Sequence record: PV806337.1
Reading direction: 5' to 3' (one strand)
DNA length: 64,000 nt
Origin: a phage
Shown here piece by piece: positions 9,518 through 51,794 of the stretch. A program made the translations under genes and the position numbers. The notes beneath the pieces were generated by a model, which searched no databases, was not told where the DNA came from, and saw nothing but the letters and a program-made list of their open reading frames with translations. Every line of letters starts with the position of its first letter. Positions within the stretch are counted from its first letter, which is position 1.

Positions 9518-11848
9518 ATGAGCCATCGCATTGAAAAAGTAATTAAACGTGACGGTACTGTAGAAGACTTTGCTCCTGAAAAAATCAATGGTTGGGCAGA
9601 GTATGGTTGCAAAACAGTTGATGTAAGCTGGTCAGCCATTACTATGGCTGCTCAAAAAACTCTGCCTAAAGGGGTTGTAGATTCCGACACTCTGATGGAT
9701 GCATTAATTAAAGCTGCTGAAAGTCTTATTAAAGATAATCCAGCATACGATGTGCCAGCAAAGGAATTACGTCTTGCGCAAATGCGTAAACGCCTTTATG
9801 ACTCTTTCGAACCACCTTCTTTACGCTTCTTCCATGACCACATGGTTAGCGTAGGTGCATGGGAAGACATGAGTGCATGGATTACCGATGAGCAATTTGA
9901 AGCTCTGAATCAGGTTATCGACCATGATCGTGACCGTCTTTTTACTAGTGGTGGGCTGAAGCAGTTCTTTGATAAGTATTCCCGTCGTAATATAGCCACT
10001 GGTGAAATTTATGAAACCCCGCAATTCGCCTACATGGGTATGGCAATGGCGATGTTATCTCAACCTAACTGGACAATTCTAGATGCAATCGACCTCTACA
10101 ACGCAATGTCGCTCCACAAAATCAACGTTCCTACGCCGCCACTGGTTGGTCTGCGCTCTAGTGACCGTGGATTTGCTAGTTGCTGTCTCGTGGATTCCAC
10201 TGACACGTTGGATTCAATCGACACCGCCGAGCACATCGTCTTCAAAATGGTCGCAGCCAGAGCGGGAATCGGGTATCATCTTGAAAGCCGATCAATTGCT
10301 GATCCGGTGCGAAATGGGGCATTCCCGCATTCCGGAAAACTGCCATATTATCGACACATTGACCGCTCAGTAAAGGCCAATACTCAGCAAACTCGTGGTG
10401 GTTCTGCTACAGTGTCTTATCCATACTTCGACCCTGAAATCATTCAATTGATGCAGGTTAAGCAACAACGTGCTACAGATGAGAATAAAATCGATAAGAT
10501 GGATTATTCTCTGAGCTTTAACAATCTTTTGTTAAAACGTTATCTTAAAAACGAAGATATTACGCTAATGTCATACTTCTATGCTCCAGAAGTTCATGAA
10601 GCGTTTTATAGTGATGACGAGGCTAAATTTGAAGAAATCTACGTGGCAGCGGAGAAACGTGTGGCATCTCTTACAAAGATCGACCACGAAGGAAAAACAG
10701 TTCCTGCAGCTCCTAAAGTCTCTGCAAAAGAAATCCTAGATACTTGGCTACGTATCCGAATGGAAACAGGACGTATGTATGCTCACCACATTGGGGAATC
10801 TAATCGTCACGGTAACTTCCTTGATCCGATCCGTATGACAAACCTTTGTGTTGAAATTACTCAGCCTACACGCCCGTTCCATCACATTACAGAGCTGTAC
10901 AAGACAAAAGAGCAGCTTGATCAAATGAAGCCGGAGGATATTGGTGAAGTATCTCTGTGTAACTTAGGTGGTGTTGTACTTGGACGCATGGAATCTCTGG
11001 CTGAGTGGGAAAAAACTTGCTACATCCTTCTGAAGTTTGTTGATACAATTATTGAAATTCAGGATTATCCGTTCCCAACTATGGAATATACGGCCAAGAA
11101 ACGTCGTAATGTCGGTATTGGCCTAATGAACGCAGCAGGTGCAATGGCAGCAGAAGGTCTGGCTTACGAAGGTATTGAAGCTCGTAACTGGATCCACCGT
11201 GAGGCTGAAAAACTGTCTTACTTCCTGCATAAAGCCTCTGTACGCCTGGCTAAGGAACAGGGTGCATGTGAGTGGTTTGATCGTACTAAACCATCTAAAG
11301 GAATTCTGGTAATCGACACGTACAAGAAAACTGTTGATGAGCTGGTATCCGTAGGTCTAGAAATGGACTGGGAGTCTCTGCGTGCAGATATTCTGAAATA
11401 TGGTATGCGTAACTCTGTTCTGACTGCTCAGATGCCGGGAGAAAGTTCTTCTGTTCTGTTAGGTGTTACTAACTCTATCGAACCACCTCGTAAGATTGTA
11501 TCTATCAAGGGTAGTGCAGTAAATAAAGTAATTGCAATTGCTCCAGGTGCAACCGATTGGGAAACGTTAATGAGCTATAAATTGGCTTATGATGTAGATC
11601 GTATCGAGTGGATCAAATGGGTAGCAACTATGCAGAAATTCTTCAGCCAGTCTGTTAGTACTAATATGTACTACGACTACACCAAGTTTGAGAATGAAAT
11701 TATTCCTGGCCCAGTAGTAGTTCGTGATTTCATGACTGCTGTTAAATACGGGTGGAAAACTTGGTATTATGCTAACTTCAACACCGCAAATGGTGGTGGT
11801 GCTGGAGAAGAAGCAGCTGGTTGTGCATCAGGCGGTTGTACTATTTAA
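9518..11848 (+). CDS. nrdA: ribonucleoside-diphosphate reductase alpha subunit (class I RNR)
   Basis: Track ORF 9413-11848; ATG 9518 after AAAGGAAAG; N-terminal ATP-cone KRDGT, core motifs NLCVEI and C-terminal Cys pair. Confidence 0.9.
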   Translation: MSHRIEKVIKRDGTVEDFAPEKINGWAEYGCKTVDVSWSAITMAAQKTLPKGVVDSDTLMDALIKAAESLIKDNPAYDVPAKELRLAQMRKRLYDSFEPPSLRFFHDHMVSVGAWEDMSAWITDEQFEALNQVIDHDRDRLFTSGGLKQFFDKYSRRNIATGEIYETPQFAYMGMAMAMLSQPNWTILDAIDLYNAMSLHKINVPTPPLVGLRSSDRGFASCCLVDSTDTLDSIDTAEHIVFKMVAARAGIGYHLESRSIADPVRNGAFPHSGKLPYYRHIDRSVKANTQQTRGGSATVSYPYFDPEIIQLMQVKQQRATDENKIDKMDYSLSFNNLLLKRYLKNEDITLMSYFYAPEVHEAFYSDDEAKFEEIYVAAEKRVASLTKIDHEGKTVPAAPKVSAKEILDTWLRIRMETGRMYAHHIGESNRHGNFLDPIRMTNLCVEITQPTRPFHHITELYKTKEQLDQMKPEDIGEVSLCNLGGVVLGRMESLAEWEKTCYILLKFVDTIIEIQDYPFPTMEYTAKKRRNVGIGLMNAAGAMAAEGLAYEGIEARNWIHREAEKLSYFLHKASVRLAKEQGACEWFDRTKPSKGILVIDTYKKTVDELVSVGLEMDWESLRADILKYGMRNSVLTAQMPGESSSVLLGVTNSIEPPRKIVSIKGSAVNKVIAIAPGATDWETLMSYKLAYDVDRIEWIKWVATMQKFFSQSVSTNMYYDYTKFENEIIPGPVVVRDFMTAVKYGWKTWYYANFNTANGGGAGEEAAGCASGGCTI

Positions 11849-26737: not shown

Positions 26738-26828
26738 GTTGGATTAGTATCGTAGAGGTAGCGAAGCAGACTGTAAATCTGCCGACTCGGAAGGGTCTCG
26801 GGTGGTTCGACTCCATCATCCAACACCA
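26738..26828 (+). tRNA. tRNA-Tyr (anticodon GTA)
   Basis: Acceptor GTTGGAT/ATCCAAC, anticodon stem GCAGA/TCTGC, loop CTGTAAA, long variable arm, T-loop TTCGACT, CCA. Confidence 0.8.
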
Positions 26829-26835
26829 AATTTAA

Positions 26836-26912
26836 GTCCTGTTAGACAAACTGGTAAAGTCACTACCCTTTCAAGGTAGGATTTGCGGGTTCGATCCCCG
26901 CACAGGACGCCA
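26836..26912 (+). tRNA. tRNA-Glu (anticodon TTC)
   Basis: Acceptor GTCCTGT/ACAGGAC, anticodon stem CTACC/GGTAG, loop CTTTCAA, T-arm GCGGG-TTCGATC-CCCGC, CCA. Confidence 0.8.
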
Positions 26913-26920
26913 TTTTCTGC

Positions 26921-26997
26921 ATTCCTAGAGTGTTACTGGACAGCATGTCGGTCTCCAAAACCGTACGGTCTAGGTTCGAGTCCTAGTAGGTTTGCCA
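26921..26997 (+). tRNA. tRNA-Trp (anticodon CCA)
   Basis: Anticodon loop CTCCAAA, T-arm CTAGG-TTCGAGT-CCTAG, CCA; acceptor stem has two U-U mismatches. Confidence 0.55.
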
Positions 26998-27003
26998 AAA
27001 TTT

Positions 27004-27078
27004 GCACCTTTAGCTGAGATGGATTAGCGCTTGCCTGAAGAGCTTGAGAGGTTGGATCGTTACCAACGGGGTGCTCCA
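27004..27078 (+). tRNA. tRNA-Phe-like (anticodon GAA), atypical
   Basis: Acceptor GCACCTT/GGGGTGC, anticodon loop CTGAAGA, non-canonical T-loop ATCGTTA, CCA; anticodon stem has two U-U mismatches. Confidence 0.45.
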
Positions 27079-27095
27079 AATTGAAGGAGCTGCTG

Positions 27096-27368
27096 ATGCA
27101 TCCTGAAAACTTCTTTATTTACTGCGCTGATAAGTCGCTGAAACGTAGAATTAACAAAGTCTATCATTATAGTGCTAGTCAACAGCCTTATGTATACGCT
27201 TTTGACGGTGATCACATTCCACTAGAACAATTATCTTGTGATTACATGATATTGAAGAACTTTGATGAGACGAAGATCTCGAGCGTTCACAATCGACAGA
27301 ATCCATTAACGTGGAAATATAAGAAGAAAAAGAAAGGCATCAAATTCTTAAAAAATGTAGTTGCTTAG
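27096..27368 (+). CDS. hypothetical protein
   Basis: ATG 27096 with GAAGGAG RBS, inside track ORF 27081-27368. Confidence 0.5.
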   Translation: MHPENFFIYCADKSLKRRINKVYHYSASQQPYVYAFDGDHIPLEQLSCDYMILKNFDETKISSVHNRQNPLTWKYKKKKKGIKFLKNVVA

Positions 27369-27389
27369 TTTCCAAAAGTTCTGTATAAT
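27361..27389 (+). promoter_or_regulatory. T5-type promoter driving tRNA-Cys
   Basis: TTGCTT 27361-27366, 17 bp, TATAAT 27384-27389. Confidence 0.7.
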
Positions 27390-27437
27390 AATTACATAAA
27401 TTGAACTGGAGAAGCAACATGACAGAACAAGATAAAC

Positions 27438-27513
27438 CGACCGTTGGCTGAATGGCTTAGGCGAAGGATTGCAAATCCTTTTTATGTGAGTTCAAATCTC
27501 ATGCGGTCGTCCA
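27438..27513 (+). tRNA. tRNA-Cys (anticodon GCA)
   Basis: Acceptor CGACCGT/GCGGTCG, anticodon stem AAGGA/TCCTT, loop TTGCAAA, T-loop TTCAAAT, CCA. Confidence 0.8.
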
Positions 27514-27534
27514 AATTACTAAAGGAAAGAAGTA

Positions 27535-28053
27535 GTGCATACAAAAGTTTTTGATAGTTTGGTAAAGAAAGGCGTTGTTACTAACGAGCCCTTCTATATA
27601 ACCGCAGAACTAATCCAGAGATTTATGGAAGAATATATAAATCTTTCAGGAACCAATGGTAATACCAAAAAGAATACAAATACTATGTATTCGAGAAAAC
27701 TTGCTGCACTTTCCTTTATAAAGTTTAAGCAGGAAAATAAACTTCCTATTTCTGAAGGTTTTGTATACTGTATTAGTAATCCTGCATGGAAAAATCAGTA
27801 TAAAATAGGTATGAGTCAAAATCCAAAAGAGAGATTAGCTCAATATCAGACTTATTCCCCTTATAGGGATTATAAGTTAGAGCATTGGTCTTTTTGGTTT
27901 GACAAACGAAAAGGTGAAAAACTAATTCACCAGTATTTCAAAGATTTAAAAGAACATGAGTGGTTTAGTATAAATTCTAGGGATCTTAGTAAATATCTAG
28001 AACGTATTAACTCTAGTTCTGACTTATATGGTTCCTTAGCTCTAATTGGTTAG
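27535..28053 (+). CDS. T5orf172 (GIY-YIG-like) domain protein
   Basis: ORF track 172 aa; FVYCISNP..YKIGMS..RL motif. Confidence 0.6.
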   Translation: MHTKVFDSLVKKGVVTNEPFYITAELIQRFMEEYINLSGTNGNTKKNTNTMYSRKLAALSFIKFKQENKLPISEGFVYCISNPAWKNQYKIGMSQNPKERLAQYQTYSPYRDYKLEHWSFWFDKRKGEKLIHQYFKDLKEHEWFSINSRDLSKYLERINSSSDLYGSLALIG

Positions 28054-28107
28054 AGCGGCATCTTGTTAAGTTGAGGGTTGCTGGTTCGAATCCTGCAGGA
28101 ACCGCCA
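28030..28107 (+). tRNA. tRNA-Asn (anticodon GTT)
   Basis: Acceptor GGTTCCT/AGGAACC perfect, D-arm GCTC-TAATTGGTTA-GAGC, anticodon loop TTGTTAA, T-loop TTCGAAT, CCA. Confidence 0.7.
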
Positions 28108-28209
28108 AATTCTGTGTAGAGTTAAGTAAACCGGTAGCCAACCAGCTATCATTGCTGACATCGAATTCAGCCATAGATACCATTTTCGTTAATAACTGAG
28201 GAAACAAGC

Positions 28210-28395
28210 ATGTCCAAGAATGTAATTGCGCAGCTAGAAGTTCATCGTGATAGCACTATCAACAATATTGAAGTTGAGAAGAAATACATAGAAGAACTTA
28301 AACATGATATACTGGTAAGTCTCAACCGTCTTAATGTACGAAAAGAGTTTCTTAAAGAACTTAATGCAGCTATTGAAAAACTCAAAGCTGAGTAA
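28210..28395 (+). CDS. hypothetical coiled-coil small protein
   Basis: ORF track 61 aa. Confidence 0.5.
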   Translation: MSKNVIAQLEVHRDSTINNIEVEKKYIEELKHDILVSLNRLNVRKEFLKELNAAIEKLKAE

Positions 28396-28404
28396 ATGAA
28401 TTAT

Positions 28405-28481
28405 GCGACCGGGGCTGGCTTGGTAATGGTACTCCCCTGTCACGGGAGAGAATGTGGGTTCAAATCCCATCGGTCGCGCCA
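28405..28481 (+). tRNA. tRNA-Asp (anticodon GTC)
   Basis: Acceptor GCGACCG/CGGTCGC, anticodon stem CTCCC/GGGAG, loop CTGTCAC, T-loop TTCAAAT, CCA. Confidence 0.8.
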
Positions 28482-28498
28482 AATAAGGTAGGTTAGCT

Positions 28499-28657
28499 AT
28501 GGAACGTAGGGAGTTTACTCCAGAAGAGATAGAGCAGATAAAAGAATCTGCTATGAAAAATGCTAGAATATCTCTGTCACTGGAAGGTATCATTATTAGT
28601 GATGTAAACTTTGAAAAAATCAAAGCCATAGCTGATGAACTGGAAAAAGTAATTTAA
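28499..28657 (+). CDS. hypothetical small protein
   Basis: 52-codon frame read by eye between tRNA-Asp and tRNA-Lys. Confidence 0.4.
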   Translation: MERREFTPEEIEQIKESAMKNARISLSLEGIIISDVNFEKIKAIADELEKVI

Positions 28658-28658
28658 T

Positions 28659-28734
28659 ACATCCATAGCTCAATGGTTAGAGCTACCGCCTCTTAAGCGG
28701 AGGGTTCTAGGTTCAAGTCCTAGTGGGTGTACCA
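28659..28734 (+). tRNA. tRNA-Lys (anticodon CTT)
   Basis: Acceptor ACATCCA/TGGGTGT, D-arm GCTC/GAGC, anticodon loop CTCTTAA, T-arm CTAGG-TTCAAGT-CCTAG, CCA. Confidence 0.6.
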
Positions 28735-28760
28735 AATTAAACTAGCACGAGAAATATGCT

Positions 28761-29108
28761 ATGATTAATGCTAAAGAAGAATTGTTACTTGCCCTAAAGA
28801 ATACTAATTCTGAAGTTAAGTGTATTAAGATAGAATTCGGTTATTATGGGGATAAAGAAGTTTGGGTATTACCCGTAGGTTATACAGAAAAAGATATTGA
28901 AGATTTTCTAGATAATCTAGACTTTAAATATGATTCTGGTTTCGGCGGACAATTGCTTTATGGTAACGTATGGTTTACCGATGGAACTTGGTTAGAACGT
29001 GGTGAATATGATGGTTCTGAATGGTGGGAATATAAGACTACACCAGCAATCCCAGAAGAATGCCGAACAATTAATGGTGAAGTAGATCGTACTTTACTAT
29101 TAAATTAA
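28761..29108 (+). CDS. hypothetical protein
   Basis: ORF track 115 aa. Confidence 0.55.
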   Translation: MINAKEELLLALKNTNSEVKCIKIEFGYYGDKEVWVLPVGYTEKDIEDFLDNLDFKYDSGFGGQLLYGNVWFTDGTWLERGEYDGSEWWEYKTTPAIPEECRTINGEVDRTLLLN

Positions 29109-29230
29109 CAAAATTTCAGTGCAGAACACGGAGCTAGCAATTCGGAAGTGCTGACTCATGATAAGCTGCCTATGTACTTGCGAAGCGGTCGTGTCCAAGA
29201 CTCGGACTCTTGCACTGAAAACAATCAAAC

Positions 29231-29352
29231 ATTCTAGCGTGGTTGATGGGGAAACCAGCTTGGCGAGGGCAGAAGCTCGTTCGATTCGAGTGAAAGAATG
29301 GTTCTCGTAAGTCCGCACAAGTGATAACAGGTTCGAGTCCTGTCTAGAATGA
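29231..29352 (+). ncRNA. 122-nt tRNA-like structured RNA (acceptor-like helix, D-arm, two T-arm hairpins)
   Basis: ATTCTAG (29231-29237) pairs perfectly with CTAGAAT (29346-29352); D-arm TGGT/ACCA; T-arm hairpins GCTCG-TTCGATT-CGAGT and ACAGG-TTCGAGT-CCTGT; no CCA; no ORF. Confidence 0.3.
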
Positions 29353-29500
29353 CACTATAAAGTTTACTTATTATGTAGGTTCCGATAGACCGGCGGGTCT
29401 ATTCTGGCATTTAAGAGAGGTCTCGCAAACTTCTTTGTCAGCCGTGGGGTTGGTAGCCTCCAGGTGGCCTACACAATAAGTAAATTTATTAAAAATTCAT

Positions 29501-29529
29501 TTGCTATTCTGCTTTATTATCTGTATAAT
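29501..29529 (+). promoter_or_regulatory. T5-type promoter
   Basis: TTGCTA 29501-29506, 17 bp, TATAAT 29524-29529. Confidence 0.7.
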
Positions 29530-29561
29530 ATATTTTATAAAGTGAAGAGAAGGAAAGCAAA

Positions 29562-29720
29562 ATGAAACACAAGATAGCTCAAGTTTTTATGGCATTATGG
29601 TGTATACCAATAGCTATAACAGCATTTAATCTAGATACTTTTACTATAGAAGAAAAATGTATCGGATTAGTTAGCGGTTTTATTATGCTGGGCTTATCTT
29701 TGCTGTGGTTAAAGAACTAA
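29562..29720 (+). CDS. small membrane protein
   Basis: 52-codon frame after promoter 29501-29529 and GAGAAGGAAAG RBS; hydrophobic. Confidence 0.45.
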   Translation: MKHKIAQVFMALWCIPIAITAFNLDTFTIEEKCIGLVSGFIMLGLSLLWLKN

Positions 29721-29724
29721 TATT

Positions 29725-29802
29725 CTCCGTGTAGCTCAGTTTGGCCAGAGCGTTTCGTTTGGGGCGATAGGGTCGGGGGTTCAAATCCTCCCACGGAGAC
29801 CA
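29725..29802 (+). tRNA. tRNA-Pro (anticodon TGG)
   Basis: Acceptor CTCCGTG/CACGGAG, D-arm GCTC/GAGC, anticodon loop TTTGGGG, T-loop TTCAAAT, CCA. Confidence 0.7.
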
Positions 29803-29808
29803 AACAAT

Positions 29809-29886
29809 TGCGGGTTAGATCTCTGGTAGAGATCGCTAGTCTCATAAGCTAGAAAGAGGTAGGTTCGATTCCTGCACCCGCTTCCA
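29809..29886 (+). tRNA. tRNA with CAT anticodon (Met/fMet/Ile2 type)
   Basis: D-arm GATC/GATC, anticodon stem CTAGT/GCTAG, loop CTCATAA, T-loop TTCGATT, CCA. Confidence 0.7.
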
Positions 29887-29906
29887 CTTTAATAGAGGAT
29901 TTCGAA

Positions 29907-30074
29907 ATGAAAGTATTTCGATTAGTAGTAAGTGACAAACGTTTAGGTAAGAATACCTCAAAATCCTTACTTGCTCATTATGGAAAAGATGAGAAAGAAG
30001 TAATGGCGGAGTTTGGGATTAATCACCCTTACTTGAAAGTTCACTCTATTAAAGAAGTATATAATGGTTACTAA
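29907..30074 (+). CDS. hypothetical small protein
   Basis: 55-codon frame read by eye between tRNA-CAT and tRNA-Lys. Confidence 0.4.
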   Translation: MKVFRLVVSDKRLGKNTSKSLLAHYGKDEKEVMAEFGINHPYLKVHSIKEVYNGY

Positions 30075-30075
30075 T

Positions 30076-30154
30076 AGATCGCTAGCTCAATAGGTTTAGT
30101 AGCATCCGACTTTTAATCGGAAGGTTCTGGGTTCGAGTCCCAGGCGATCTACCA
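30076..30154 (+). tRNA. tRNA-Lys (anticodon TTT)
   Basis: Acceptor AGATCGC/GCGATCT perfect, anticodon stem TCCGA/TCGGA, loop CTTTTAA, T-loop TTCGAGT, CCA. Confidence 0.8.
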
Positions 30155-30172
30155 ATTTCAAGAAAAACGCAG

Positions 30173-30201
30173 TTGCTTGATGCTTAATTTCTTGTTATAA
30201 T
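30173..30201 (+). promoter_or_regulatory. T5-type promoter driving ORF-free segment and tRNA-Ala
   Basis: TTGCTT 30173-30178, 17 bp, TATAAT 30196-30201. Confidence 0.7.
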
Positions 30202-30438
30202 ATTTATATAAATTGATGAGGAGAAATCCTCATCATAGTTCACTAAGGTATTAGCTCGACCTAGGACTGGCTACCAAAAAGCACGATCCCTACGATTTGG
30301 AGAAGTTCTAGATTAGTCCACTAGATTCAGCGGCAACTGAATAGTGTATTGGGTTTGCGAGATGACGCAGTTCCTTCCGCTCGAAGCGAAGGTGCTGTAG
30401 TTACGCCGAGCTAATAGCCTTAGTAAACTAAAGAATTT

Positions 30439-30517
30439 GGGGGATGGGTCTGCTAGGGGTGGACACCTCACTTGCACCGAGGACATCAGAACGATTCGAA
30501 TTCGTTATCCTCCACCA
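30439..30517 (+). tRNA. tRNA-Ala (anticodon TGC)
   Basis: Acceptor GGGGGAT/ATCCTCC, D-stem GTCT/GGAC, anticodon loop CTTGCAC, T-arm AACGA-TTCGAAT-TCGTT, CCA. Confidence 0.6.
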
Positions 30518-30522
30518 AATAC

Positions 30523-30599
30523 GCGTGATTGATGGAATTGGCATACATACCGTCCTTAGAAGTCGGGTTTTGAGGGTTCGAATCCCTTGTCACGCACCA
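30523..30599 (+). tRNA. tRNA with TAG anticodon (Leu by anticodon) but short variable arm
   Basis: Acceptor GCGTGAT/GTCACGC, anticodon loop CTTAGAA, T-arm GAGGG-TTCGAAT-CCCTT, A73, CCA; 5-nt variable region. Confidence 0.5.
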
Positions 30600-30724
30600 A
30601 ATTTGATGGTCAGAGTAAATTAAACCTACTATCTCGGTTGAGCTGTTTTAATGGGTTCGAATCCCAGCGAGGCGTAACTGCCTGGTGTGATAGAGGCATC
30701 ATTCCACTAACATTGGAAAAACTA

Positions 30725-30955
30725 ATGAAACGAAAATTAAAAAAGTCTTATATAATTAAGATAAATAAGCTACGAAGTAGGGCAAAAGGATGGCCACTTC
30801 GAATATTAATTGCGGATAACCATACTAGATACCATGCGGAACAACGTCATTACAAACAGTGGGAGTCATACTGCCGCTCAAAAGCAGGTCGTTTAGATGG
30901 ATCTTATGAGTTTCTATTTGGTAAGAAGCCTACTAGAGTAGCTTTAGGTAATTAA
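30725..30955 (+). CDS. small basic protein
   Basis: In-frame ATG inside track ORF 30587-30955; upstream part carries a tRNA T-arm-like motif. Confidence 0.4.
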   Translation: MKRKLKKSYIIKINKLRSRAKGWPLRILIADNHTRYHAEQRHYKQWESYCRSKAGRLDGSYEFLFGKKPTRVALGN

Positions 30956-30959
30956 TACT

Positions 30960-31050
30960 TGGAAGAGCAAATCGAATTGGCGACGAAAACCGCTTGGAAA
31001 GTGGCTGACTGGTAAAACGGCTTGAGAGTTCAAATCTCTCCTCTTCCGCC
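30960..31050 (+). tRNA. tRNA-Ser (anticodon GGA)
   Basis: Anticodon loop TTGGAAA, long variable arm, T-arm GAGAG-TTCAAAT-CTCTC, acceptor 3' CTCTTCC, CCA. Confidence 0.6.
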
Positions 31051-31062
31051 AAACAATTTATA

Positions 31063-31157
31063 TGGTAGGTCAATCCAATGGCTGGCGTGGGACTCCGACT
31101 TGAAATCGGTTGATCGTAGTGATACGGTGTAAGGGTTCGATCCCCTTACCTACCTCC
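31063..31157 (+). tRNA. tRNA-Ser (anticodon TGA)
   Basis: Acceptor GGTAGGT/ACCTACC perfect, anticodon stem CCGA/TCGG, loop CTTGAAA, long variable arm, T-loop TTCGATC, CCA. Confidence 0.7.
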
Positions 31158-31523
31158 AAATCTTGAAGTATGCCGGAATCGGTAGACGGGGCTGCCTAAA
31201 AGGTTTATAGGGAACATCCACTCCCTGCAACATACCTCATAAAGCGGCTGAGATAAATGGTCTATCTCGTGAAGGTTCAAGTCCTTCTGCTTCTTGATAT
31301 ATCTATGGCTCAAAGTGTAACGGTGCTATTTGATGCTCTTAGTAAGACTTTCCCGACATGCGTTCGGGAGTAAGCTGCTAAGGCTAGAGTAGAAGAGTTT
31401 CGGAGAGCCGCCACAATTGAAAATTCGTACTCGTCTTGAGCTGCGCGCAATAGGAGATAACTTGATTAGTATTCTAGAACATGCTAATTGAGGATGGTTT
31501 CGCTAACCCTGCGAGTTTTCAAT

Positions 31524-31600
31524 TGTGGCTATATCATAATTGGTTAATGATCCTGATTGTGAATCAGGCCTATGTGGATTCGAATTCCACTAGCCACCCC
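31524..31600 (+). tRNA. tRNA-His (anticodon GTG)
   Basis: Acceptor GTGGCTA/TAGCCAC, D-arm TCAT/ATGA, anticodon stem CCTGA/TCAGG, loop TTGTGAA, T-loop TTCGAAT, CCA. Confidence 0.8.
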
Positions 31601-31626
31601 AAATTAACTTAAACAGGAAATAAAAT

Positions 31627-31821
31627 ATGGCTGATTTCTGCAAACAATGCTCCATTGATATGTGGGGCAGAGATACTGGTGATCTTTCTGGTTTGATTAC
31701 AGAAGCTGAAGTTAAAGAAGGCTACGGTGCAGTTGTAGTTTGCGAAGGCTGTGGAGTTATTCGAGTAGATCATGAAGGCAAACGTTTAGAAGAACCTGGG
31801 CCAACTACTCTAATTCCATAG
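31627..31821 (+). CDS. putative zinc-ribbon small protein
   Basis: ORF track 64 aa; CKQC ... CEGC pairs. Confidence 0.55.
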   Translation: MADFCKQCSIDMWGRDTGDLSGLITEAEVKEGYGAVVVCEGCGVIRVDHEGKRLEEPGPTTLIP

Positions 31822-31833
31822 AGTAATAATTAT

Positions 31834-31909
31834 TGGGATGTAGATCAATTGGCAGATCGTCGGCCTCTGACTCCGAAGGTTCCACGTTCGATCCGTGGCA
31901 TCCCAGCCA
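31834..31909 (+). tRNA. tRNA-Gln (anticodon CTG)
   Basis: 76 nt; U1-A72, G73, anticodon positions 34-36 CTG, T-loop TTCGATC, CCA. Confidence 0.8.
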
Positions 31910-31915
31910 AACAAT

Positions 31916-31991
31916 TGGAGAGTAGTGTAACGGTTAGCACAACGGCCTTTGACTCCGTTAATGGTAGGTTCGATTCCTCCTTCTCCAGCCA
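31916..31991 (+). tRNA. tRNA-Gln (anticodon TTG)
   Basis: 76 nt; U1-A72, G73, D-stem GTGT/GCAC, anticodon loop CTTTGAC, T-loop TTCGATT, CCA. Confidence 0.8.
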
Positions 31992-31999
31992 AATAATAA

Positions 32000-32075
32000 G
32001 CGGTTAAGCACACGGGTTGTGTCGCAGGCCTTCCAAGCCTCGCTGAGTAGGGTTCGATTCCCTCTAGCCGCTCCA
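32000..32075 (+). tRNA. tRNA-Gly (anticodon TCC)
   Basis: Acceptor GCGGTTA/TAGCCGC, anticodon loop CTTCCAA, T-loop TTCGATT, U73, CCA. Confidence 0.8.
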
Positions 32076-32091
32076 ACTTTAAGGAAATGTT

Positions 32092-32313
32092 ATGCACGTT
32101 TTTGAGTTTCGTAATAAAAATACTGATAAGCGAGTTATCATTATTGGAGAAACATACCGAGCATATGAACAAACTGACGGCTCTGTTATCTTGAATGATG
32201 AGAAAGGAGGTTTTAGCTTTTATCCAGAAGAACCTTATGAAGAGTTTCGTACTAAGTTTCTTTTACCAGACTGGCTAGCAGTAGCTGAGCAACGAGAATC
32301 CGAAGATGGCTGA
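32092..32313 (+). CDS. hypothetical protein
   Basis: ORF track 73 aa. Confidence 0.5.
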   Translation: MHVFEFRNKNTDKRVIIIGETYRAYEQTDGSVILNDEKGGFSFYPEEPYEEFRTKFLLPDWLAVAEQRESEDG

Positions 32314-32470
32314 TAACCTAAAATTAAGGGTCGACAAACAAAAGAAATACATTGAGGTTGAATTAGGCGAAGAACGCTTAAAGCTAACTTTCGAGTTTCT
32401 TCAGCAGTTGGCAATGACAGTTATGACTGATAAGTCTCCTGTTATTGAAAAAGAAATCCCGTTGAAATAA
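32306..32470 (+). CDS. hypothetical small protein
   Basis: 54-codon frame overlapping previous stop. Confidence 0.4.
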   Translation: MADNLKLRVDKQKKYIEVELGEERLKLTFEFLQQLAMTVMTDKSPVIEKEIPLK

Positions 32471-32478
32471 CGGGTTCT

Positions 32479-32553
32479 GCTCCTAAAGCATTGCTGGCGA
32501 TGCAGTTGCCTTGTAAGCATCTGAACCGGGTTCGATTCCTGGTGGGAGCACCA
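32479..32553 (+). tRNA. tRNA-Thr (anticodon TGT)
   Basis: Acceptor GCTCCTA/TGGGAGC, D-arm GCAT/ATGC, anticodon loop CTTGTAA, T-loop TTCGATT, CCA. Confidence 0.75.
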
Positions 32554-32568
32554 AATTTAAAAATTCAT

Positions 32569-32597
32569 TTGCCTTCTCTCTTATTTCTTGTTATAAT
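32569..32597 (+). promoter_or_regulatory. T5-type promoter
   Basis: TTGCCT 32569-32574, 17 bp, TATAAT 32592-32597. Confidence 0.65.
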
Positions 32598-32627
32598 ATT
32601 TATATAAATTAATGAGAGGGAAACCAA

Positions 32628-32921
32628 ATGAAACGTTATCTTTCTGTAGTATTTCAAACTGGTGGTCAAAGATATACCTATGAATTTCCTAACTCTTGGA
32701 AAATCAAAGAAGGTGATCAAGTTGTTGTGTTAACACCACGTGAAGGATATAAAGTAGTAACTGTTAAACAAGTATTCCCAAAAGATCATGAACCAGCTAA
32801 AGGCATTTGCTATAAGATGATTCATGGTGTAGTTCGTCAAGTACCACGAGCGGAAGTCGAAATCAAAATAGATAAAGATGGTAAACTTAAATACACCTCC
32901 TGCTTAGACGAGTTGCTATAA
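32628..32921 (+). CDS. hypothetical protein
   Basis: ORF track 97 aa after promoter 32569-32597. Confidence 0.55.
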   Translation: MKRYLSVVFQTGGQRYTYEFPNSWKIKEGDQVVVLTPREGYKVVTVKQVFPKDHEPAKGICYKMIHGVVRQVPRAEVEIKIDKDGKLKYTSCLDELL

Positions 32922-33127
32922 TGAGGATTACTTTTACAGAAAAGATCATGAGTAATGGTGTTATGATCATTACCGCATGGGATGGTAATCAGTGGTGTAG
33001 TGTTTCAGGTATTAAACCTGAAGAACAAACACTAGAAAATATCTCAAAGATTAAGCGAAGAATGGCAGAACGTGCACGACTTCCAGGTGCACCCAGAAAT
33101 GGCAAACGTTCTGCAACTAAATGTTAA
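32921..33127 (+). CDS. hypothetical protein
   Basis: ORF track 68 aa, ATGA overlap with previous gene. Confidence 0.5.
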   Translation: MRITFTEKIMSNGVMIITAWDGNQWCSVSGIKPEEQTLENISKIKRRMAERARLPGAPRNGKRSATKC

Positions 33128-33128
33128 T

Positions 33129-33205
33129 GCTTCGGTAGCTTAGCGATCTAAAGCACTCGGCTGATAACCGAGAGATCGGGGGTTTAAATCCCTCCCGGAG
33201 TACCA
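33129..33205 (+). tRNA. tRNA-Ile (anticodon GAT)
   Basis: Anticodon stem CTCGG/CCGAG perfect, loop CTGATAA, atypical T-loop TTTAAAT, CCA. Confidence 0.7.
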
Positions 33206-33301
33206 AATTTAGGAATTAAGACTATGCGTCCAGGAAAGTTTAAAAAAGCTAATTGGTCTAAAGAGTATAAAGAATACTTACTTAGTCTAATAAAACATAA
33301 T

Positions 33302-33377
33302 AGTTAGTTGGCAGAGTGGTTATGCACCTCCTTCATACGGAGCGATTACAGTGGTTCAAATCCACTACTAACTACCA
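33302..33377 (+). tRNA. tRNA with CAT anticodon (Met/fMet/Ile2 type)
   Basis: Acceptor AGTTAGT/ACTAACT perfect, anticodon loop TTCATAC, T-arm AGTGG-TTCAAAT-CCACT, CCA. Confidence 0.7.
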
Positions 33378-47739: not shown

Positions 47740-47924
47740 TGGAAACTCTTTTTCTTTTAATGCTCGTAGGTTCTCTGTTACTAATACTAGCACTTCTACT
47801 AATCTGCAATATTCTTAATAATAAGAATCTAGAGCTAAAGTGTGAGAACCAAATCCTTAACCGTGAACTTAAACAATATAATCTAGCAGCCTATAAACTG
47901 TTAGACAAACTGGAGAATAAATAA
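47739..47924 (+). CDS. small membrane protein
   Basis: ORF track 61 aa. Confidence 0.45.
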   Translation: METLFLLMLVGSLLLILALLLICNILNNKNLELKCENQILNRELKQYNLAAYKLLDKLENK

Positions 47925-48526
47925 TGACTTTTAATGCGCAACAATCTATTCAAGTAGTGCCAGATCATGAACTGAACACATGGGATTATAGCTTTAAAGA
48001 TTTAACCGCTACTGTACAATTTAAATCTATGAAGCTAACATTTGCACACACTGACCTTAGAGCATGTAAAGGTCTTGAGGATAAGCTCGAAGATGCTCGC
48101 AAGATTTTTGGTAAGGCTCGCATCCCAGCTGATAATCTAATTAACGCATTAATCGATGCAGGGTACAAACTTGTGAAGACTGAGGTGAACCGCCCTAGTA
48201 CTCCAGTGACTATTAGAGATCCGTGGCAGTCAGGGACAATCGCAATGCTGAATAAATCATCGGATTTGCACAATGTTCCTTGTGGGGGTGTGATAAGTAG
48301 TACGCAGTCATATAAGTTTGGGGAAGATTACGGCCCTTCTGTACAGTTGAAACATACTCAAGAAGCTTTTGAATCTGATATGCGAAGCGTAGCACCTGCG
48401 GATGCTGAAGGTTTTAGAAGTCCCATCTATGTTACTCACTTTAATAATCTTAGGCCTGGGAGTATAAATGATGCTATCCTTGAAGCGTTGGGAGCTGCTA
48501 TTAATGAAGATAAGAGGGGTAATTAA
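47924..48526 (+). CDS. hypothetical protein
   Basis: ORF track 200 aa; internal reverse ORFs judged spurious. Confidence 0.55.
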   Translation: MTFNAQQSIQVVPDHELNTWDYSFKDLTATVQFKSMKLTFAHTDLRACKGLEDKLEDARKIFGKARIPADNLINALIDAGYKLVKTEVNRPSTPVTIRDPWQSGTIAMLNKSSDLHNVPCGGVISSTQSYKFGEDYGPSVQLKHTQEAFESDMRSVAPADAEGFRSPIYVTHFNNLRPGSINDAILEALGAAINEDKRGN

Positions 48527-49251
48527 TGAGTATAAAAAAGAATTTAGCAGAGATTATTAAGTTAGCTAGAGCTTGTAATGGAAAATGTGTTTCTCAGCTT
48601 AATGAACTAGAAGCACATGCAGTAGCATTTTGTGCAGAGTTTTATCCTGCATACCTTAATGCTAGTGGGCAACCTAAATATAATAAGGATGCCGAAGAAG
48701 TTACGTTAGCTCCTTCATATATTAGCTTGCGTCGTTTAATTCAAACCGTTGATCCTACTATTAAAGGATTCTCAGCAGATTCATTCCACGTCTTTGCAGA
48801 TAAAGAACTCCCGTATTTTAAAGAAGGAAATGCAAAGTCATGTTTAGAATGTTATCCTAATATACTGATGATTCCTCAAAAGCAATGTAAATACGATCAT
48901 CTTCCTAGACTTACAAAGAAAGTAGCACCACCTTATTCTTCTCTATCTGAATTAAAGCTAGGAATTGTATCTACACTTGCGCAGATTCATCTAAGTATAG
49001 TTGACGACTCAACAACATCTAACCCTATTCTAGATGCTGCTCACTTTGAAATTTTACGTGATCCTGAACAAGCTAGAAAAGTTGCTAAGTCTGTTAAGTT
49101 TGATATATCAACAATTCTTGACACTAAACAAGAAACTAGACCTAGAGGAAGTGTAGATTATTCTGCGCTAAATTCCGAGTCATCTTACTTAGCAACATTC
49201 CTTTTCATGGCGTCAAAAGGGGTTATTCTAAAGGTTAATAAAGATGGATGA
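48526..49251 (+). CDS. hypothetical protein
   Basis: ORF track 241 aa. Confidence 0.55.
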   Translation: MSIKKNLAEIIKLARACNGKCVSQLNELEAHAVAFCAEFYPAYLNASGQPKYNKDAEEVTLAPSYISLRRLIQTVDPTIKGFSADSFHVFADKELPYFKEGNAKSCLECYPNILMIPQKQCKYDHLPRLTKKVAPPYSSLSELKLGIVSTLAQIHLSIVDDSTTSNPILDAAHFEILRDPEQARKVAKSVKFDISTILDTKQETRPRGSVDYSALNSESSYLATFLFMASKGVILKVNKDG

Positions 49252-49972
49252 TTTACGTGCTGAAATTAATAAAAAGTTACGAGAGGAAGCCCGGAGGTTT
49301 CCTCTTAAAAACTTTTTGAAGTCAAATGGCTCTACTAATATAACGAAGATTAGGCAACTTCACCCTGACTTCCAACAAGAGGCCTTAAACCTTATCTTTA
49401 TTAGGAAAGCTTTAAAAGTCCAGAAAGAAGAGTATGGGTATGAAAGAGTTAATTATAAGACAGCCAATCAGTTAGTAGAGATATGGTGCTATAAACATAA
49501 AGGATACTTTATGCAAACTGCTAGATCTCACCTAGATGGGCACGGTTGTTTACAATGTGCTAGGGAAAGCAACCTAAATACACCTATCGAGAAACCGGAG
49601 GTAGAAGAAGATGTTCAGTCCCCCACATATCTCTATATCTTCTCTAATAAAGATCAGTCTAGGAAGAAATTAAAGACAAAGATTGGGGTTTCTAGAGAGC
49701 CACATCAAAGGTTTAAGAATCTAGAGTATGATAAATTGCGTGTGCCGGGTTTTGAAGATATGGAAGTATTTGGTATCTACCAGTATAAGAAAGGATCGAA
49801 AGAACTCGCTTACAAAATAGAACACCAAGCACATAAATTTTTCGAGAATAAATTTGCTAACCATTATAAATTCGATGGAGCAAAAGAGATATTCAACATT
49901 AAAGCTGTAGAGGCAGAAGAATATCTATTAAGTCAAGGTTGCATAAAAATTTACCCAACTCCAAACTCATGA
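49244..49972 (+). CDS. zinc-ribbon + T5orf172 (GIY-YIG-like) domain protein
   Basis: ORF track 242 aa; GHGCLQC ribbon; YLYIFSN..KIGVS..FDGAKEIF pattern. Confidence 0.6.
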   Translation: MDDLRAEINKKLREEARRFPLKNFLKSNGSTNITKIRQLHPDFQQEALNLIFIRKALKVQKEEYGYERVNYKTANQLVEIWCYKHKGYFMQTARSHLDGHGCLQCARESNLNTPIEKPEVEEDVQSPTYLYIFSNKDQSRKKLKTKIGVSREPHQRFKNLEYDKLRVPGFEDMEVFGIYQYKKGSKELAYKIEHQAHKFFENKFANHYKFDGAKEIFNIKAVEAEEYLLSQGCIKIYPTPNS

Positions 49973-49999
49973 CAAAAATTTAAAAGTAACGAAATCTGC

Positions 50000-50029
50000 T
50001 TGACATTCGTGAGAATAATGTGTTATAAT
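50000..50029 (+). promoter_or_regulatory. consensus sigma70 promoter (TTGACA-18-TATAAT) with no ORF downstream
   Basis: TTGACA 50000-50005, TATAAT 50024-50029; next about 300 nt lack a credible ORF and lead into the repeat field. Confidence 0.6.
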
Positions 50030-50369
50030 AATCTCATAGATTAAAAACATCAACTTGTTTTTACCTCTAGGCCGTAGATTTACATCATTCCTCGTAGGAA
50101 AACACTTGATGACGGTTCTGCTCGCAGGTTCTCGTCAATTGTTCTTCCACACCGAGACTTAGGAGGATGTATCAAATCGCACGCGCCTAGAGGGGCTAAC
50201 TCTCATGAAATGGGGGTATATTTACTTTTAAATAACTAAAAAATATTTAAAGGCAATATCTGTGTTCAAGATGATACACCTGTTGCCGCTCTCCATCTCT
50301 AGGATCACATACACTTTCCTAGAAACTCCAGAGTTCTCACTAAATACTCACGAAATATCACACTTCTAG

Positions 50370-50442
50370 TGGGCGGTTCTCCTAAGTTTCTAGGAACATA
50401 TACTAGGCGGTTAATATAGGGCGGTTAATATAGGGCGGTTAT
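50370..50442. repeat. tandem GGCGGTT-containing direct repeats (TAGGGCGGTTAATA x3 plus variant)
   Basis: Copies at 50405-50417, 50417-50430, 50431-50442, variant 50370-50380. Confidence 0.8.
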
Positions 50443-50485
50443 TTCTAGGAGACATTTTTCCAAAACACATTTCCAGAAATTACTA

Positions 50486-51085
50486 TCGGATTTGCACATT
50501 GTGTTTCTAGAAATTTATGGTCGGATTTGCACAAACGCCTAAGTTTTTAGGAACTCTTACTCCCCTGAAAATGGCAGCATTATTTCGGGCCGAAGGCCCA
50601 TAATTGCCTGAGTTTTTAGAGCCACAGAAATTTTCACTTGTCAAGCTATTTTGCCCCATTTTGCTAATAAAATTTTACTTTATCTCCACTAATCTCAAAT
50701 TAACCCAAATCTTCTCAACTCTTCCCCAAAAACGCAGCAAATCAGGCGTTGCACGCCACCCATGCTGCTCCTCCAGTTTCTCCCCTTATTTTCTCTCGCT
50801 CTCTCATCTTCTCCTCAAACCCATACAATCACACACCCTCTCATCGAAGTCACAAAAATCTTGTCGGATTCGCACATCTTAATCCTAGAAAAACCGTGTC
50901 GGATTTGCACATACCCCACAGGATTCGAACGCAGTTCGTGATTGCTGGAGTTTTTAGGAAAATTCATTGTCGGATTTGCACACTATAAAAATTTTTCGGG
51001 TCGGATTTGCACACTACCAAAAATTGTCGGATTTGCACACACACGCCCACGCGTAATCCATGGGGGCAAATGTCGGTTTTGCACA
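50486..51085. repeat. dispersed 14-bp direct repeat GTCGGATTTGCACA, 8 copies (injection-stop-signal-like region)
   Basis: Copies near 50486, 50520, 50863 (variant), 50898, 50969, 51000, 51026, 51072 (variant), irregular spacing. Confidence 0.8.
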
Positions 51086-51119
51086 AAAGCGCAGGGCAAT
51101 TGCCCTGCTCGCCTGAATG

Positions 51120-51300
51120 CGAATGATAATGAGAATGATTCTCATTTAAAAAGCGGAATGAGAATGATAATAATTCGCATTTAAGAATGGAAGTGAGAAT
51201 TATTCAGGAAGTGAAACGATTCTCATTTAAAAAGCAGAATGATTCTCATTTAGAAAGTGGAACGCAAATAATAGTGATTCGTATTTAAGAACGGAAGTGA
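51120..51300. repeat. palindromic repeat family (GAATGAGAATGATTCTCATTTAAAAAGC-like)
   Basis: Several similar ~25-bp units, each a near-palindrome around GAGAATGATTCTC; further copy at 51623-51643. Confidence 0.7.
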
Positions 51301-51426
51301 GAAACACTATTATTTAAGTTATCCACAGACTTATTAACAGCACGATTTGACTTGACAGAATCCTAGCCATTTTGGGGTGTTATTAACAGACTTATCCACA
51401 GCTTATCCTACTGTATAAATATACAG
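51297..51426. repeat. left arm of ~130-bp imperfect inverted repeat with two DnaA-box motifs
   Basis: TTATCCACA at 51319-51327 and 51392-51400; ends in palindrome CTGTATAAATATACAG; reverse complement matches 55251-55380. Confidence 0.8.
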
Positions 51427-51794
51427 TATTCCTACGCAGTGAATAATTCTAATATAGCGTTAAAACGTCCTAGATCGCATTCTAACGCGTTTAATTTTGG
51501 TGGAGATACTAAAACAAGGGCAAAATTGGAGGAGGCTTGAAAATTAGTTAGCTCGCTAACGATCACACAAGGCGACACGTAACACCCTAATCATTAGCAG
51601 GCTAACCATCGCGGGCGCGGTCAAATGAGAATGATTCTCATTTGAGAATTGGGGGCACTTCCCGATAGTTGCGCCCCGTGATTATTATAGTAGCGGGCAA
51701 CCGTTACGCTTTGCCCACTCCCGCCACTCATCTTGATGCCTAGACTTGCGACGGCGTACTAAAAACCGCTTGTACCAGTGATTAAACCATCGTT

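What the first reader, a model, noticed from the sequence alone, without database searches (positions are those of the whole stretch)
50000..50300. Consensus promoter firing into non-coding DNA at the edge of the repeat field
The only textbook TTGACA-18-TATAAT promoter in the window is followed by ~300 nt containing no ORF of note before the repeats begin. It may make a small RNA, or transcription through the repeat field may be part of how the injection pause is released or controlled.
Basis: seen in the sequence. Interest (0 to 1): 0.45.

Follow-up and report, generated by a model that had tools for sequence, protein, structure and literature searches.

The report
Unannotated structured small RNA gene in T5-like phages
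The consensus promoter is real and most likely drives a roughly 197-nt, highly folded non-coding RNA that is conserved in shape across T5-like phages but has never been annotated; it lies outside the first-injected DNA, so it cannot control the injection pause.

Summary
The window is a T5-like phage (Demerecviridae) in reverse T5 orientation. The promoter TTGACA-18-(TGT)TATAAT at 50000-50029 (+) is real and is the only perfect match in 64 kb. Downstream, 50036-50232 contains no conserved ORF. It folds (z = -5.6 to -5.8) into a 5' hairpin, a 130-nt long hairpin and a 3' hairpin followed by a U-rich tail.

The same unit sits at the same place in every T5-like locus examined. It is also present in distant Demerecviridae (Klebsiella phage Spivey, Pantoea phage AAS21, Serratia phage Kamaji). 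The -35, TG and -10 elements are almost invariant while the spacer is scrambled. The RNA interior falls into at least 11 unrelated sequence types that all keep the long-hairpin fold. Compensatory base changes support the fold, and the sense strand always folds better than the antisense strand.

There is no Rfam match, no annotation in three T5 records, and no mention in the literature I could search.

The terminal-repeat boundary maps to 50618|50619. The promoter therefore lies about 590 bp inside second-step-transfer DNA and about 1.06 kb beyond the first-step nick motif. It points back toward the repeat and is followed by a terminator. A role in releasing the injection pause is not supported.

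Function is unknown. The RNA type co-varies with the hypervariable upstream T5.018-family protein.

The parts
50000..50029 (+). Sigma-70 promoter: -35 TTGACA (50000-50005), 18-nt spacer, extended -10 TGT (50021-50023), -10 TATAAT (50024-50029)
   Evidence: The elements are conserved while the spacer is scrambled in 29 distinct promoter sequences. The same consensus is present in Klebsiella phage Spivey, Pantoea phage AAS21 and Serratia phage Kamaji.
50036..50232 (+). Predicted small non-coding RNA (~197 nt). The start at A50036 is inferred from its 7-nt distance to the -10. The 3' end is inferred from the hairpin plus U-rich tail.
   Evidence: Fold z = -5.77 and -5.61. A covariance model built only from other sequence classes matches exactly 50036-50232, full length, E = 5.7e-11, and is the only hit in the window. 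No Rfam family matches.
50042..50063 (+). 5' hairpin H1 (8 bp, 6-nt loop)
   Evidence: Three pairs show changes on both sides across classes (AU<->CG, CG<->UA, AU<->UA).
50064..50193 (+). Long imperfect hairpin P2 (~130 nt). The base (CUCUAGG... / ...CGCGCCUAGAG) is conserved and the interior is hypervariable.
   Evidence: At least 11 unrelated interior sequence classes all fold as a long hairpin. Compensatory changes are seen.
50199..50232 (+). 3' hairpin (50199-50217, 8 pairs, GAA loop, conserved CAUGAAAUGGGGG) plus U-rich tail AUAUUUACUUUUAAA: a likely but weak intrinsic terminator
   Evidence: Terminator scan. The G-run followed by a U/A-rich tail is conserved in all classes.
50236..50618 (.). 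Highly conserved non-coding DNA between the RNA gene and the terminal repeat. It contains TTCAAGATGATACACCTGTTGCC, CTAG-centred palindromes, GGCGGTTAATATAG x2 and two GTCGGATTTGCACA copies.
   Evidence: Most aligned columns are 80-100% identical across 38 distinct T5-like sequences, with lower stretches around 50343-50405. Repeats are listed.
50619..51700 (.). Inner end of the direct terminal repeat (first base G50619) and the injection-stop region: GTCGGATTTGCACA repeats, palindromes, nick motif GCGCAGGG at 51089, DnaA boxes at 51319-51327 and 51392-51400
   Evidence: The boundary ...GAGTTTTTA|GAGCCACAG is identical in T5 (two records), EscoHU1 and Elw. Nick motif. DnaA boxes: read from the sequence.
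48526..49251 (+). T5.018-family protein gene (241 aa, PHROG 8993, function unknown). It is hypervariable and its type matches the RNA type.
49244..49972 (+). T5orf172 / homing-endonuclease-like ORF inserted between the T5.018-family gene and the promoter. It is present in only some relatives.
   Evidence: Pfam PF10544, E = 4.4e-6; PHROG endonuclease families. It is absent at this position in many loci.

Best explanation
This is a stand-alone small non-coding RNA gene. Host sigma-70 RNA polymerase recognises the near-perfect extended -10 promoter without any phage factor. It starts near A50036, transcribes about 197 nt toward the terminal repeat, and stops at the 3' hairpin with its U-rich tail (50199-50232). 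The RNA folds into a short 5' hairpin and a 130-nt imperfect hairpin. The gene lies in the first kilobase of second-step-transfer DNA, so it is among the first units available to host polymerase once injection resumes. What the sequences show: the promoter elements, the fold, compensatory changes, strand asymmetry, and conservation across Demerecviridae. What is inferred: that the transcript exists, and its exact ends. The most speculative step is the function. I think it acts in trans as a protein-binding structured RNA, most plausibly paired with the co-diverging T5.018-family protein encoded just upstream, and that its discrete, hypervariable hairpin types reflect type-specific recognition or an arms race. 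I put about 0.75-0.8 on 'real RNA gene' and about 0.25-0.3 on the protein-partner mechanism.
For: Promoter:
- It is unique in the window.
- The hexamers and TG are conserved while the spacer is scrambled.
- A consensus promoter sits at the same place in Spivey (TTGACA-18-TGTTATAAT), AAS21 and Kamaji.
- In Spivey an intrinsic terminator separates the upstream gene from the promoter, so the unit is independent (read from the sequence).

Structure:
- The window RNA gives z = -5.8 and -5.6.
- Eleven class representatives give z = -3.3 to -6.4 with the same three-element architecture.
- The distant phages give z = -2.4, -1.7 and -4.3.
- The sense strand folds better than the antisense strand in 25 of 25 distinct sequences.

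Covariation:
- Alignment A2: 92% of cells paired against 38-44% in slid controls, 14 pairs with double changes against 1-4, and 0 of 500 shuffles reaching the observed score.
- T5-type alignment A3: 99% paired, three double changes and four G-U transitions.
- 18 compensatory pairs within classes.

Homology and distribution:
- A covariance model built from other classes finds the window RNA full length at E = 5.7e-11, and it is single-copy.
- 408 GenBank T5-like records match one of the 11 interior types at 90% identity or more.

Protein link:
- The RNA type equals the T5.018-family protein type in 36 of 36 evaluable loci, although promoter-spacer types are shared across classes.
- The protein is 25-50% identical between groups, while the next gene is mostly 69-90% (one locus 52%) and the downstream non-coding DNA is mostly 80-100%.
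Against: - There are no transcript data of any kind.
- The U-tract is interrupted, so termination efficiency and the 3' end are uncertain.
- The covariation rests on few independent lineages (7 sequences per alignment) and on MAFFT alignments that are poor in the interior.
- T5-type, AKFV33-type and the three distant phages are not detected by the covariance model. They are linked only by synteny, promoter and architecture.
- The match between protein type and RNA type could be plain linkage inside one recombination island.
- The protein gave no fold or family hint of RNA binding.
Confidence: 0.72

Rival explanations
1. A DNA- or transcription-level cis element at the terminal-repeat junction. 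On this view the promoter fires toward the repeat to prime or activate replication through the repeat, or to assist concatemer processing and packaging, and the long inverted repeat works as a DNA hairpin or cruciform. T7 phiOL/phiOR and the hairpin intermediate at the T7 concatemer junction would be the analogues (from my own knowledge of T7).
For: The unit lies 387-619 bp from the repeat boundary and is oriented toward it. It sits beside strongly conserved non-coding DNA with iteron-like repeats and DnaA boxes. The terminator is weak, so read-through is possible.
Against: The sense strand folds better than the antisense strand in 25 of 25 sequences, and many pairs are kept through G-U, which a double-stranded DNA cruciform would not favour. 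A conserved 3' hairpin with U-rich tail ends the unit before the junction. Davison notes that T5 replication origins map near the genome centre.
Confidence: 0.12
2. A 3' end or insulator structure for the leftward early operon. On this view the long hairpin and terminator stabilise the upstream mRNAs and stop read-through into the injection-stop region and repeat, and the promoter is secondary.
For: In this window there is no terminator between the stop codon at 49972 and the promoter, so upstream transcripts would run into the same hairpins and end at the same place.
Against: This does not explain why a consensus extended -10 promoter is maintained across the whole family while its spacer is scrambled. 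In Spivey the upstream gene has its own strong terminator before the promoter. A stabiliser would not need discrete hypervariable types.
Confidence: 0.1
3. One reading: transcription from this promoter through the repeat field controls or releases the first-step-transfer pause.
For: Only proximity to the injection-stop region.
Against: The promoter lies in unique second-step DNA, ~590 bp outside the repeat and ~1.06 kb beyond the nick motif at 51089. It is single-copy in genomes with both repeats. It points toward DNA that has already entered, so it cannot pull DNA in. A terminator-like hairpin precedes the repeats.
Confidence: 0.03
4. A small protein-coding gene or a chance promoter. Some GenBank records annotate 'hypothetical protein' here.
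For: ORFs of 31-35 aa exist. There is an 8-codon ORF with a Shine-Dalgarno-like GAGGGG in the 3' hairpin. Several records carry a CDS over the region.
Against: No reading frame is conserved between classes. Interiors are unalignable and differ in length (85-120 nt). The mini-ORF is AUG-UAA in class F and absent in class C. A chance promoter is excluded by the conservation pattern.
Confidence: 0.03

Closest known systems
phi29-family packaging RNA (pRNA)
   Same: A phage-encoded structured RNA of 120-174 nt, made from a strong early host-polymerase promoter at the end of the genome. Sequences in related phages are very divergent while the secondary structure is kept (from my own knowledge).
   Different: There is no Rfam match and the fold is different: one long hairpin rather than a three-way junction with kissing loops. 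There is no evidence of a packaging role, and T5-like phages are not known to need RNA for packaging.
Small phage regulatory RNAs with their own promoter and terminator (lambda oop, P22 sar, P1/P7 c4)
   Same: A short, independently transcribed, non-coding unit ending at an intrinsic terminator.
   Different: Those RNAs are antisense to a neighbouring gene or carry a defined complementary target. Here no gene lies opposite, and no complementarity longer than 12 nt was found to the rest of the 64-kb window. This RNA is also 2-3 times longer.
Type III toxin-antitoxin RNA-protein pairs (ToxI/ToxN)
   Same: An adjacent RNA and protein that diversify together into cognate types.
   Different: There are no tandem 36-nt-type repeats. 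The gene order is reversed and the RNA has a separate promoter. The protein shows no ToxN/AbiQ-like family or fold match.
T7 phiOL/phiOR promoters and the concatemer-junction hairpin
   Same: A strong promoter and an inverted repeat close to a direct terminal repeat, oriented toward it (from my own knowledge).
   Different: T7 uses its own polymerase, and the function there is at the DNA level. Here the strand asymmetry and G-U covariation point to an RNA-level structure.
6S RNA
   Same: About 180-200 nt, largely one extended hairpin, and expected to be abundant.
   Different: There is no large central bubble and no pairing of the 5' and 3' ends. No match to any Rfam family at E up to 10, which includes any 6S models held there.

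Membership tests
Sigma-70 extended -10 promoter | -35 TTGACA, 16-18 nt spacer, TGn, -10 TATAAT | tested here: met
   12/12 matches plus TG; unique in the window.
Sigma-70 extended -10 promoter | Selective maintenance of the elements, not of the surrounding sequence | tested here: met
   Hexamers and TG are 69-100% conserved; spacer positions are 34-76%, apart from one at 90%, over 29 distinct sequences. The elements are also kept in three distant Demerecviridae.
Sigma-70 extended -10 promoter | Initiation by RNA polymerase holoenzyme at the predicted start | not testable with these tools
   Needs in vitro transcription, 5' RACE or RNA-seq.
Structured non-coding RNA gene | Secondary structure more stable than chance and conserved across relatives | tested here: met
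   z = -5.8. Eleven classes give z = -3.3 to -6.4 with the same architecture.
Structured non-coding RNA gene | Compensatory base changes that support the helices | tested here: met
   The caveat is that few independent lineages contribute.
Structured non-coding RNA gene | Absence of conserved coding potential | tested here: met
   No conserved frame or length; the mini-ORF is broken in some classes.
Intrinsic terminator | G+C-rich stem-loop directly followed by a run of U | tested here: inconclusive
   The stem has 8 pairs, of which 3 are G-C, and the tail AUAUUUACUUUU is interrupted. Class E carries a canonical version, GAGAGAC...GUCUCUUUUUCUUU.
Any Rfam 15 family (which would include models such as 6S, pRNA, c4, ToxI or tRNA-like) | Covariance-model match | tested here: not met
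   No hit at gathering threshold, and none at E up to 10 on 49900-51700.
T5 injection stop signal / first-step-transfer DNA | Location inside the left terminal repeat, left of the 7.9% nick | tested here: not met
   The repeat boundary is at 50618|50619 and the nick motif at 51089. The promoter lies outside both and is single-copy in full genomes.
Type III toxin-antitoxin | Tandem-repeat antitoxin RNA upstream of a ToxN/AbiQ-fold endoribonuclease | tested here: not met
   No tandem repeats in 50036-50232. The protein has no such family or fold.

The most novel reading that the evidence does not exclude
The RNA and the hypervariable T5.018-family protein form a co-evolving, type-specific ribonucleoprotein module that is conserved across Demerecviridae and sits at the terminal-repeat junction. 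It could act in a step peculiar to these phages, such as processing or duplication of the 10-kb repeat, control after second-step transfer, or type-specific competition, exclusion or anti-defence. Its discrete hairpin 'alleles' would then behave like specificity or incompatibility types.
Probability: 0.22. Interest if true: 0.8.

Novelty: new member of a known kind. Interest (0 to 1): 0.6.

Why it matters
T5 has been a model phage for over 60 years, yet the ~700 bp between its left terminal repeat and gene T5.018 carries no annotation in three reference records, and Davison's detailed analysis of the region does not mention a promoter or transcript there. A family-wide RNA gene driven by a consensus promoter, placed in the first DNA to enter after the injection pause, is a concrete new player to test in early T5 infection. 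It comes in discrete hypervariable types that track a fast-evolving neighbouring protein. It also corrects spurious 'hypothetical protein' calls in many GenBank records and defines a candidate new RNA family. The T5 coordinates given here make it directly testable.

Tried and rejected
- **Rfam.** No hit at gathering or permissive thresholds.
- **Trans-antisense target.** The longest complementarity to the rest of the window is 12 nt, which is chance level.
- **Host or plasmid homologue or mimic.** None in 5,426 E. coli genomes or 72,556 plasmids.
- **Identity with the classical T5 promoter PN25.** Tested with the sequence as I recall it; no match.
- **Coding mini-ORF MKWGYIYF.** Not conserved.
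- **Link to the T5 nick motif CCCTGCGC.** The RNA's conserved CACGCGCC is not that motif. The motif maps to 51089.
- **Palindrome AATCTCATAGATT across the start site as an operator.** The dyad is broken in L032 and AKFV33, so I did not pursue it.
- **Function of the T5.018-family protein.**
  - No Pfam, PADLOC or PDB sequence hit.
  - The AlphaFold model has pLDDT 72.
  - Foldseek against PDB gives nothing below E = 0.97.
  - BFVD returns only uncharacterised Demerecviridae proteins.
  - afdb50 was unavailable.
- **Literature.** Six searches and five papers checked. None mentions a promoter or RNA at this site.
- **Covariance model.** It did not detect T5-type, AKFV33-type or the three distant phages.

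Full report
**Identity of the window.** A 3-kb query around the finding matches 458 phage records, all T5-like (Escherichia and Salmonella Demerecviridae). The best are slur09, NG_A1 and DaisyDussoix. The window carries 21-23 tRNA genes on the + strand at 20.9-33.4 kb. It runs opposite to the T5 map, and the terminal repeat is collapsed in the assembly.

**Observation.**
- TTGACA-18-TATAAT lies at 50000-50029 (+) with TG at the extended -10 position, 12/12 matches.
- It is the only exact match in 64 kb. Shuffles give 0.09 expected, and 9 of 100 shuffles have at least one match.
- Downstream there are only mechanical ORFs of 31-35 aa.
- The repeat field follows from about 50400.

**What lies downstream.** The stretch 50036-50235 folds at -64.6 kcal/mol against -41.3 ± 4.1 for shuffles, z = -5.77. 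The fold has three parts:
- a 5' hairpin (50042-50063);
- a 130-nt imperfect hairpin (50064-50193);
- a 3' hairpin (50199-50217) followed by AUAUUUACUUUU, which the terminator scan also lists.

No Rfam family matches, either at gathering score or at E up to 10.

**Comparative evidence: loci and promoter.** I collected loci by scanning for two conserved motifs in IMG/VR and in metagenomes, by searching with a neighbouring protein, and from GenBank hits.
- All 75 T5-like loci with the conserved downstream block carry a promoter at the same place.
- Their 29 distinct promoter sequences keep TTGACA, TTGACG or TTGCAT, a 17-18 nt spacer, and TGTTATAAT or TGTTATCAT. The spacer sequence itself is scrambled: element identity is 69-100%, spacer identity 34-76% with one position at 90%.

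**Comparative evidence: RNA body.**
- The transcribed segment falls into at least 11 sequence classes whose interiors cannot be aligned with each other.
- Every class folds into the same three-part architecture, with z = -3.3 to -6.4.
- In 25 of 25 distinct sequences the promoter-sense strand folds better than the antisense strand, by roughly 10 kcal/mol on average. That is expected for an RNA using G-U pairs and not for a symmetric DNA element.

**Comparative evidence: covariation and distribution.**
- On a 7-sequence alignment of four classes, 92.2% of cells pair, against 38-44% when partners are slid. Fourteen pairs change on both sides, against 1-4 in the controls. None of 500 shuffles reaches the observed covariation score.
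- The T5-type alignment is 99.2% paired, with three double changes and four G-U transitions.
- Within-class comparisons give 18 compensatory pairs.
- A covariance model built only from the L021, L009, L010 and L032 classes finds the window RNA full length at exactly 50036-50232 (E = 5.7e-11). It finds it nowhere else in the window, and also hits EscoHU1, UTK0009, L003 and Elw.
- It does not detect T5-type, AKFV33-type or the more distant phages. Those are linked by synteny, promoter and architecture only.
- A concatenated query of the 11 interiors matches 408 GenBank T5-like records at 90% identity or more. The interiors therefore form discrete types. They are almost always unannotated or called 'hypothetical protein'.

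**Depth of conservation.** The upstream protein family led to three distant Demerecviridae. In Klebsiella phage Spivey (Sugarlandvirus), Pantoea phage AAS21 and Serratia phage Kamaji the same layout appears immediately after the homologous gene:
- a consensus extended -10 promoter (in Spivey TTGACA-18-TGTTATAAT, followed by the same AATCTCATAGATT start);
- a 5' hairpin;
- a long hairpin of about 100 nt;
- a G-run with a U/A-rich tail;
- then the GGGCGGTTAT repeats of the injection-stop region.

The folds give z = -2.4, -1.7 and -4.3. In Spivey a strong intrinsic terminator lies between the protein gene and the promoter, so the RNA unit is transcriptionally independent there.

**Position relative to the two-step injection.**
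- The annotated inner ends of the terminal repeat in T5 (two records), EscoHU1 and Elw all fall at ...GAGTTTTTA|GAGCCACAG. That is 50618|50619 in the window.
- The 326-nt region around the promoter is single-copy in full-length genomes that carry both repeats.
- The T5 7.9% nick motif (CCCTGCGC; reverse complement GCGCAGGG) maps to 51089.
- The promoter is therefore ~590 bp inside unique second-step DNA and ~1.06 kb beyond the DNA present during the pause. It fires back toward DNA that has already entered, and a terminator-like hairpin precedes the repeats.
- Together these points reject the idea that it controls or releases the pause. They do make it one of the first units exposed to host polymerase when transfer resumes. 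That last step is inference.

**Not described before, as far as I could check.**
- T5 records NC_005859, AY587007 and AY692264 annotate nothing between the last repeat feature and T5.018.
- Davison's analysis of the region contains no occurrence of 'promoter', 'transcript', 'terminator' or 'small RNA'.
- The other T5 papers I checked do not mention it.
- In T5 the homologous unit is NC_005859 complement ~10640..10844, with its promoter at 10851..10879.

**Hypervariable island and a possible partner.**
- The non-coding DNA downstream (50250-50790) is mostly 80-100% identical in all T5-likes.
- The T5.019 homologue upstream (47924-48526) is mostly 69-90% identical, with one locus at 52%.
- The gene between them (48526-49251; PHROG 8993; the positional and distant sequence homologue of T5.018, the '33.8 kDa early protein') is only 25-50% identical between groups.
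- Its groups mirror the RNA classes: A with C; D, D', E and F together; T5-type with AKFV33-type.
- The RNA class equals the protein class in 36 of 36 evaluable loci. This holds although the intervening promoter-spacer types are shared between classes, and although homing-endonuclease genes are variably inserted between the two. Here the insertion is a T5orf172 ORF at 49244-49972.
- This could be linkage or functional coupling.
- The protein family is small, with ~25 clusters at 50% identity among 1.84 billion proteins. It is restricted to Demerecviridae and gave no informative family or fold match.

**Mechanism and rivals.**
- Best supported is an independent small structured RNA made by host polymerase and ended by its own terminator. 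Its function is unknown. My working model is a protein-binding RNA, possibly partnered with the T5.018-family protein, whose discrete hairpin types reflect specificity or an arms race.
- First rival: a cis DNA or transcription element for processing or replication at the repeat junction. The strand asymmetry, the G-U covariation and the terminator argue against it.
- Second rival: a 3'-end or insulator structure for the early operon. It does not explain the maintained promoter or the Spivey terminator.
- Control of the injection pause is contradicted by position.
- A coding gene or a chance promoter is contradicted by the conservation pattern.

**Caveats.**
- There are no expression data.
- The U-tract is weak.
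- Few independent lineages underlie the covariation counts.
- Interior alignments are poor.
- Covariance-model E-values are rough.

Noticed in passing
window 48526-49251 (+): The T5.018-family protein (241 aa, PHROG 8993) is hypervariable among T5-likes: 25-50% identity between groups, while its neighbours are mostly 69-90%. It is conserved across Demerecviridae and has no recognisable family or fold. Its conserved motifs include H-x3-D-E-x-LP and YDHLP.
   Followed up: partly
window 49244-49972 (+): A T5orf172 / homing-endonuclease-like ORF overlaps the end of the previous gene by 8 nt and ends 28 nt before the -35. Relatives carry nothing, or a different 118-aa endonuclease gene, at the same insertion point.
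   Followed up: partly
window 49978-49989 and 50222-50233: A perfect 12-nt inverted repeat (ATTTAAAAGTAA / TTACTTTTAAAT) brackets the whole promoter-plus-RNA unit. It is not seen in classes that lack the endonuclease insertion, so it may be chance or linked to the endonuclease.
   Followed up: partly
window 50290-50560: CTAG is enriched: 9 occurrences in 620 bp (14.5 per kb) against 4.5 per kb for the window. Most occur as the palindromic pair TTTCTAGGAA / TTCCTAGAAA in both orientations within highly conserved non-coding DNA, which could be a protein-binding motif.
   Followed up: no
window 50265-50290: The block TTCAAGATGATACACCTGTTGCCGCTC is nearly invariant in all T5-likes, including T5 itself, although the RNA gene just upstream is hypervariable. 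Its function is unknown.
   Followed up: no
window 50618|50619: The inner boundary of the direct terminal repeat, inferred by homology with four annotated genomes. The assembly behind this window has the repeat collapsed.
   Followed up: yes
window 51089-51108; 51319-51327; 51392-51400: The T5 major-nick motif (GCGCAGGG) lies inside a G+C-rich palindrome that also scores as a minus-strand terminator. Two consensus DnaA boxes (TTATCCACA) lie in the injection-stop region, as Davison described for T5.
   Followed up: partly
window 20923-33377 (+): A cluster of 21-23 tRNA genes, typical of T5-like phages.
   Followed up: no
L103 (Klebsiella phage Spivey) 2340-2380: A strong intrinsic terminator (CACAGGGACTCTCGCCAAGTCCCTGTCACTTTTTC) separates the T5.018-like gene from the RNA promoter. 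The window phage has no such terminator.
   Followed up: no
GenBank records, e.g. AAS21 gp181-gp189 (L102 2356-3812): Many very short 'hypothetical protein' CDSs are annotated across the RNA gene and the injection-stop repeats in several records. They are probably spurious.
   Followed up: no
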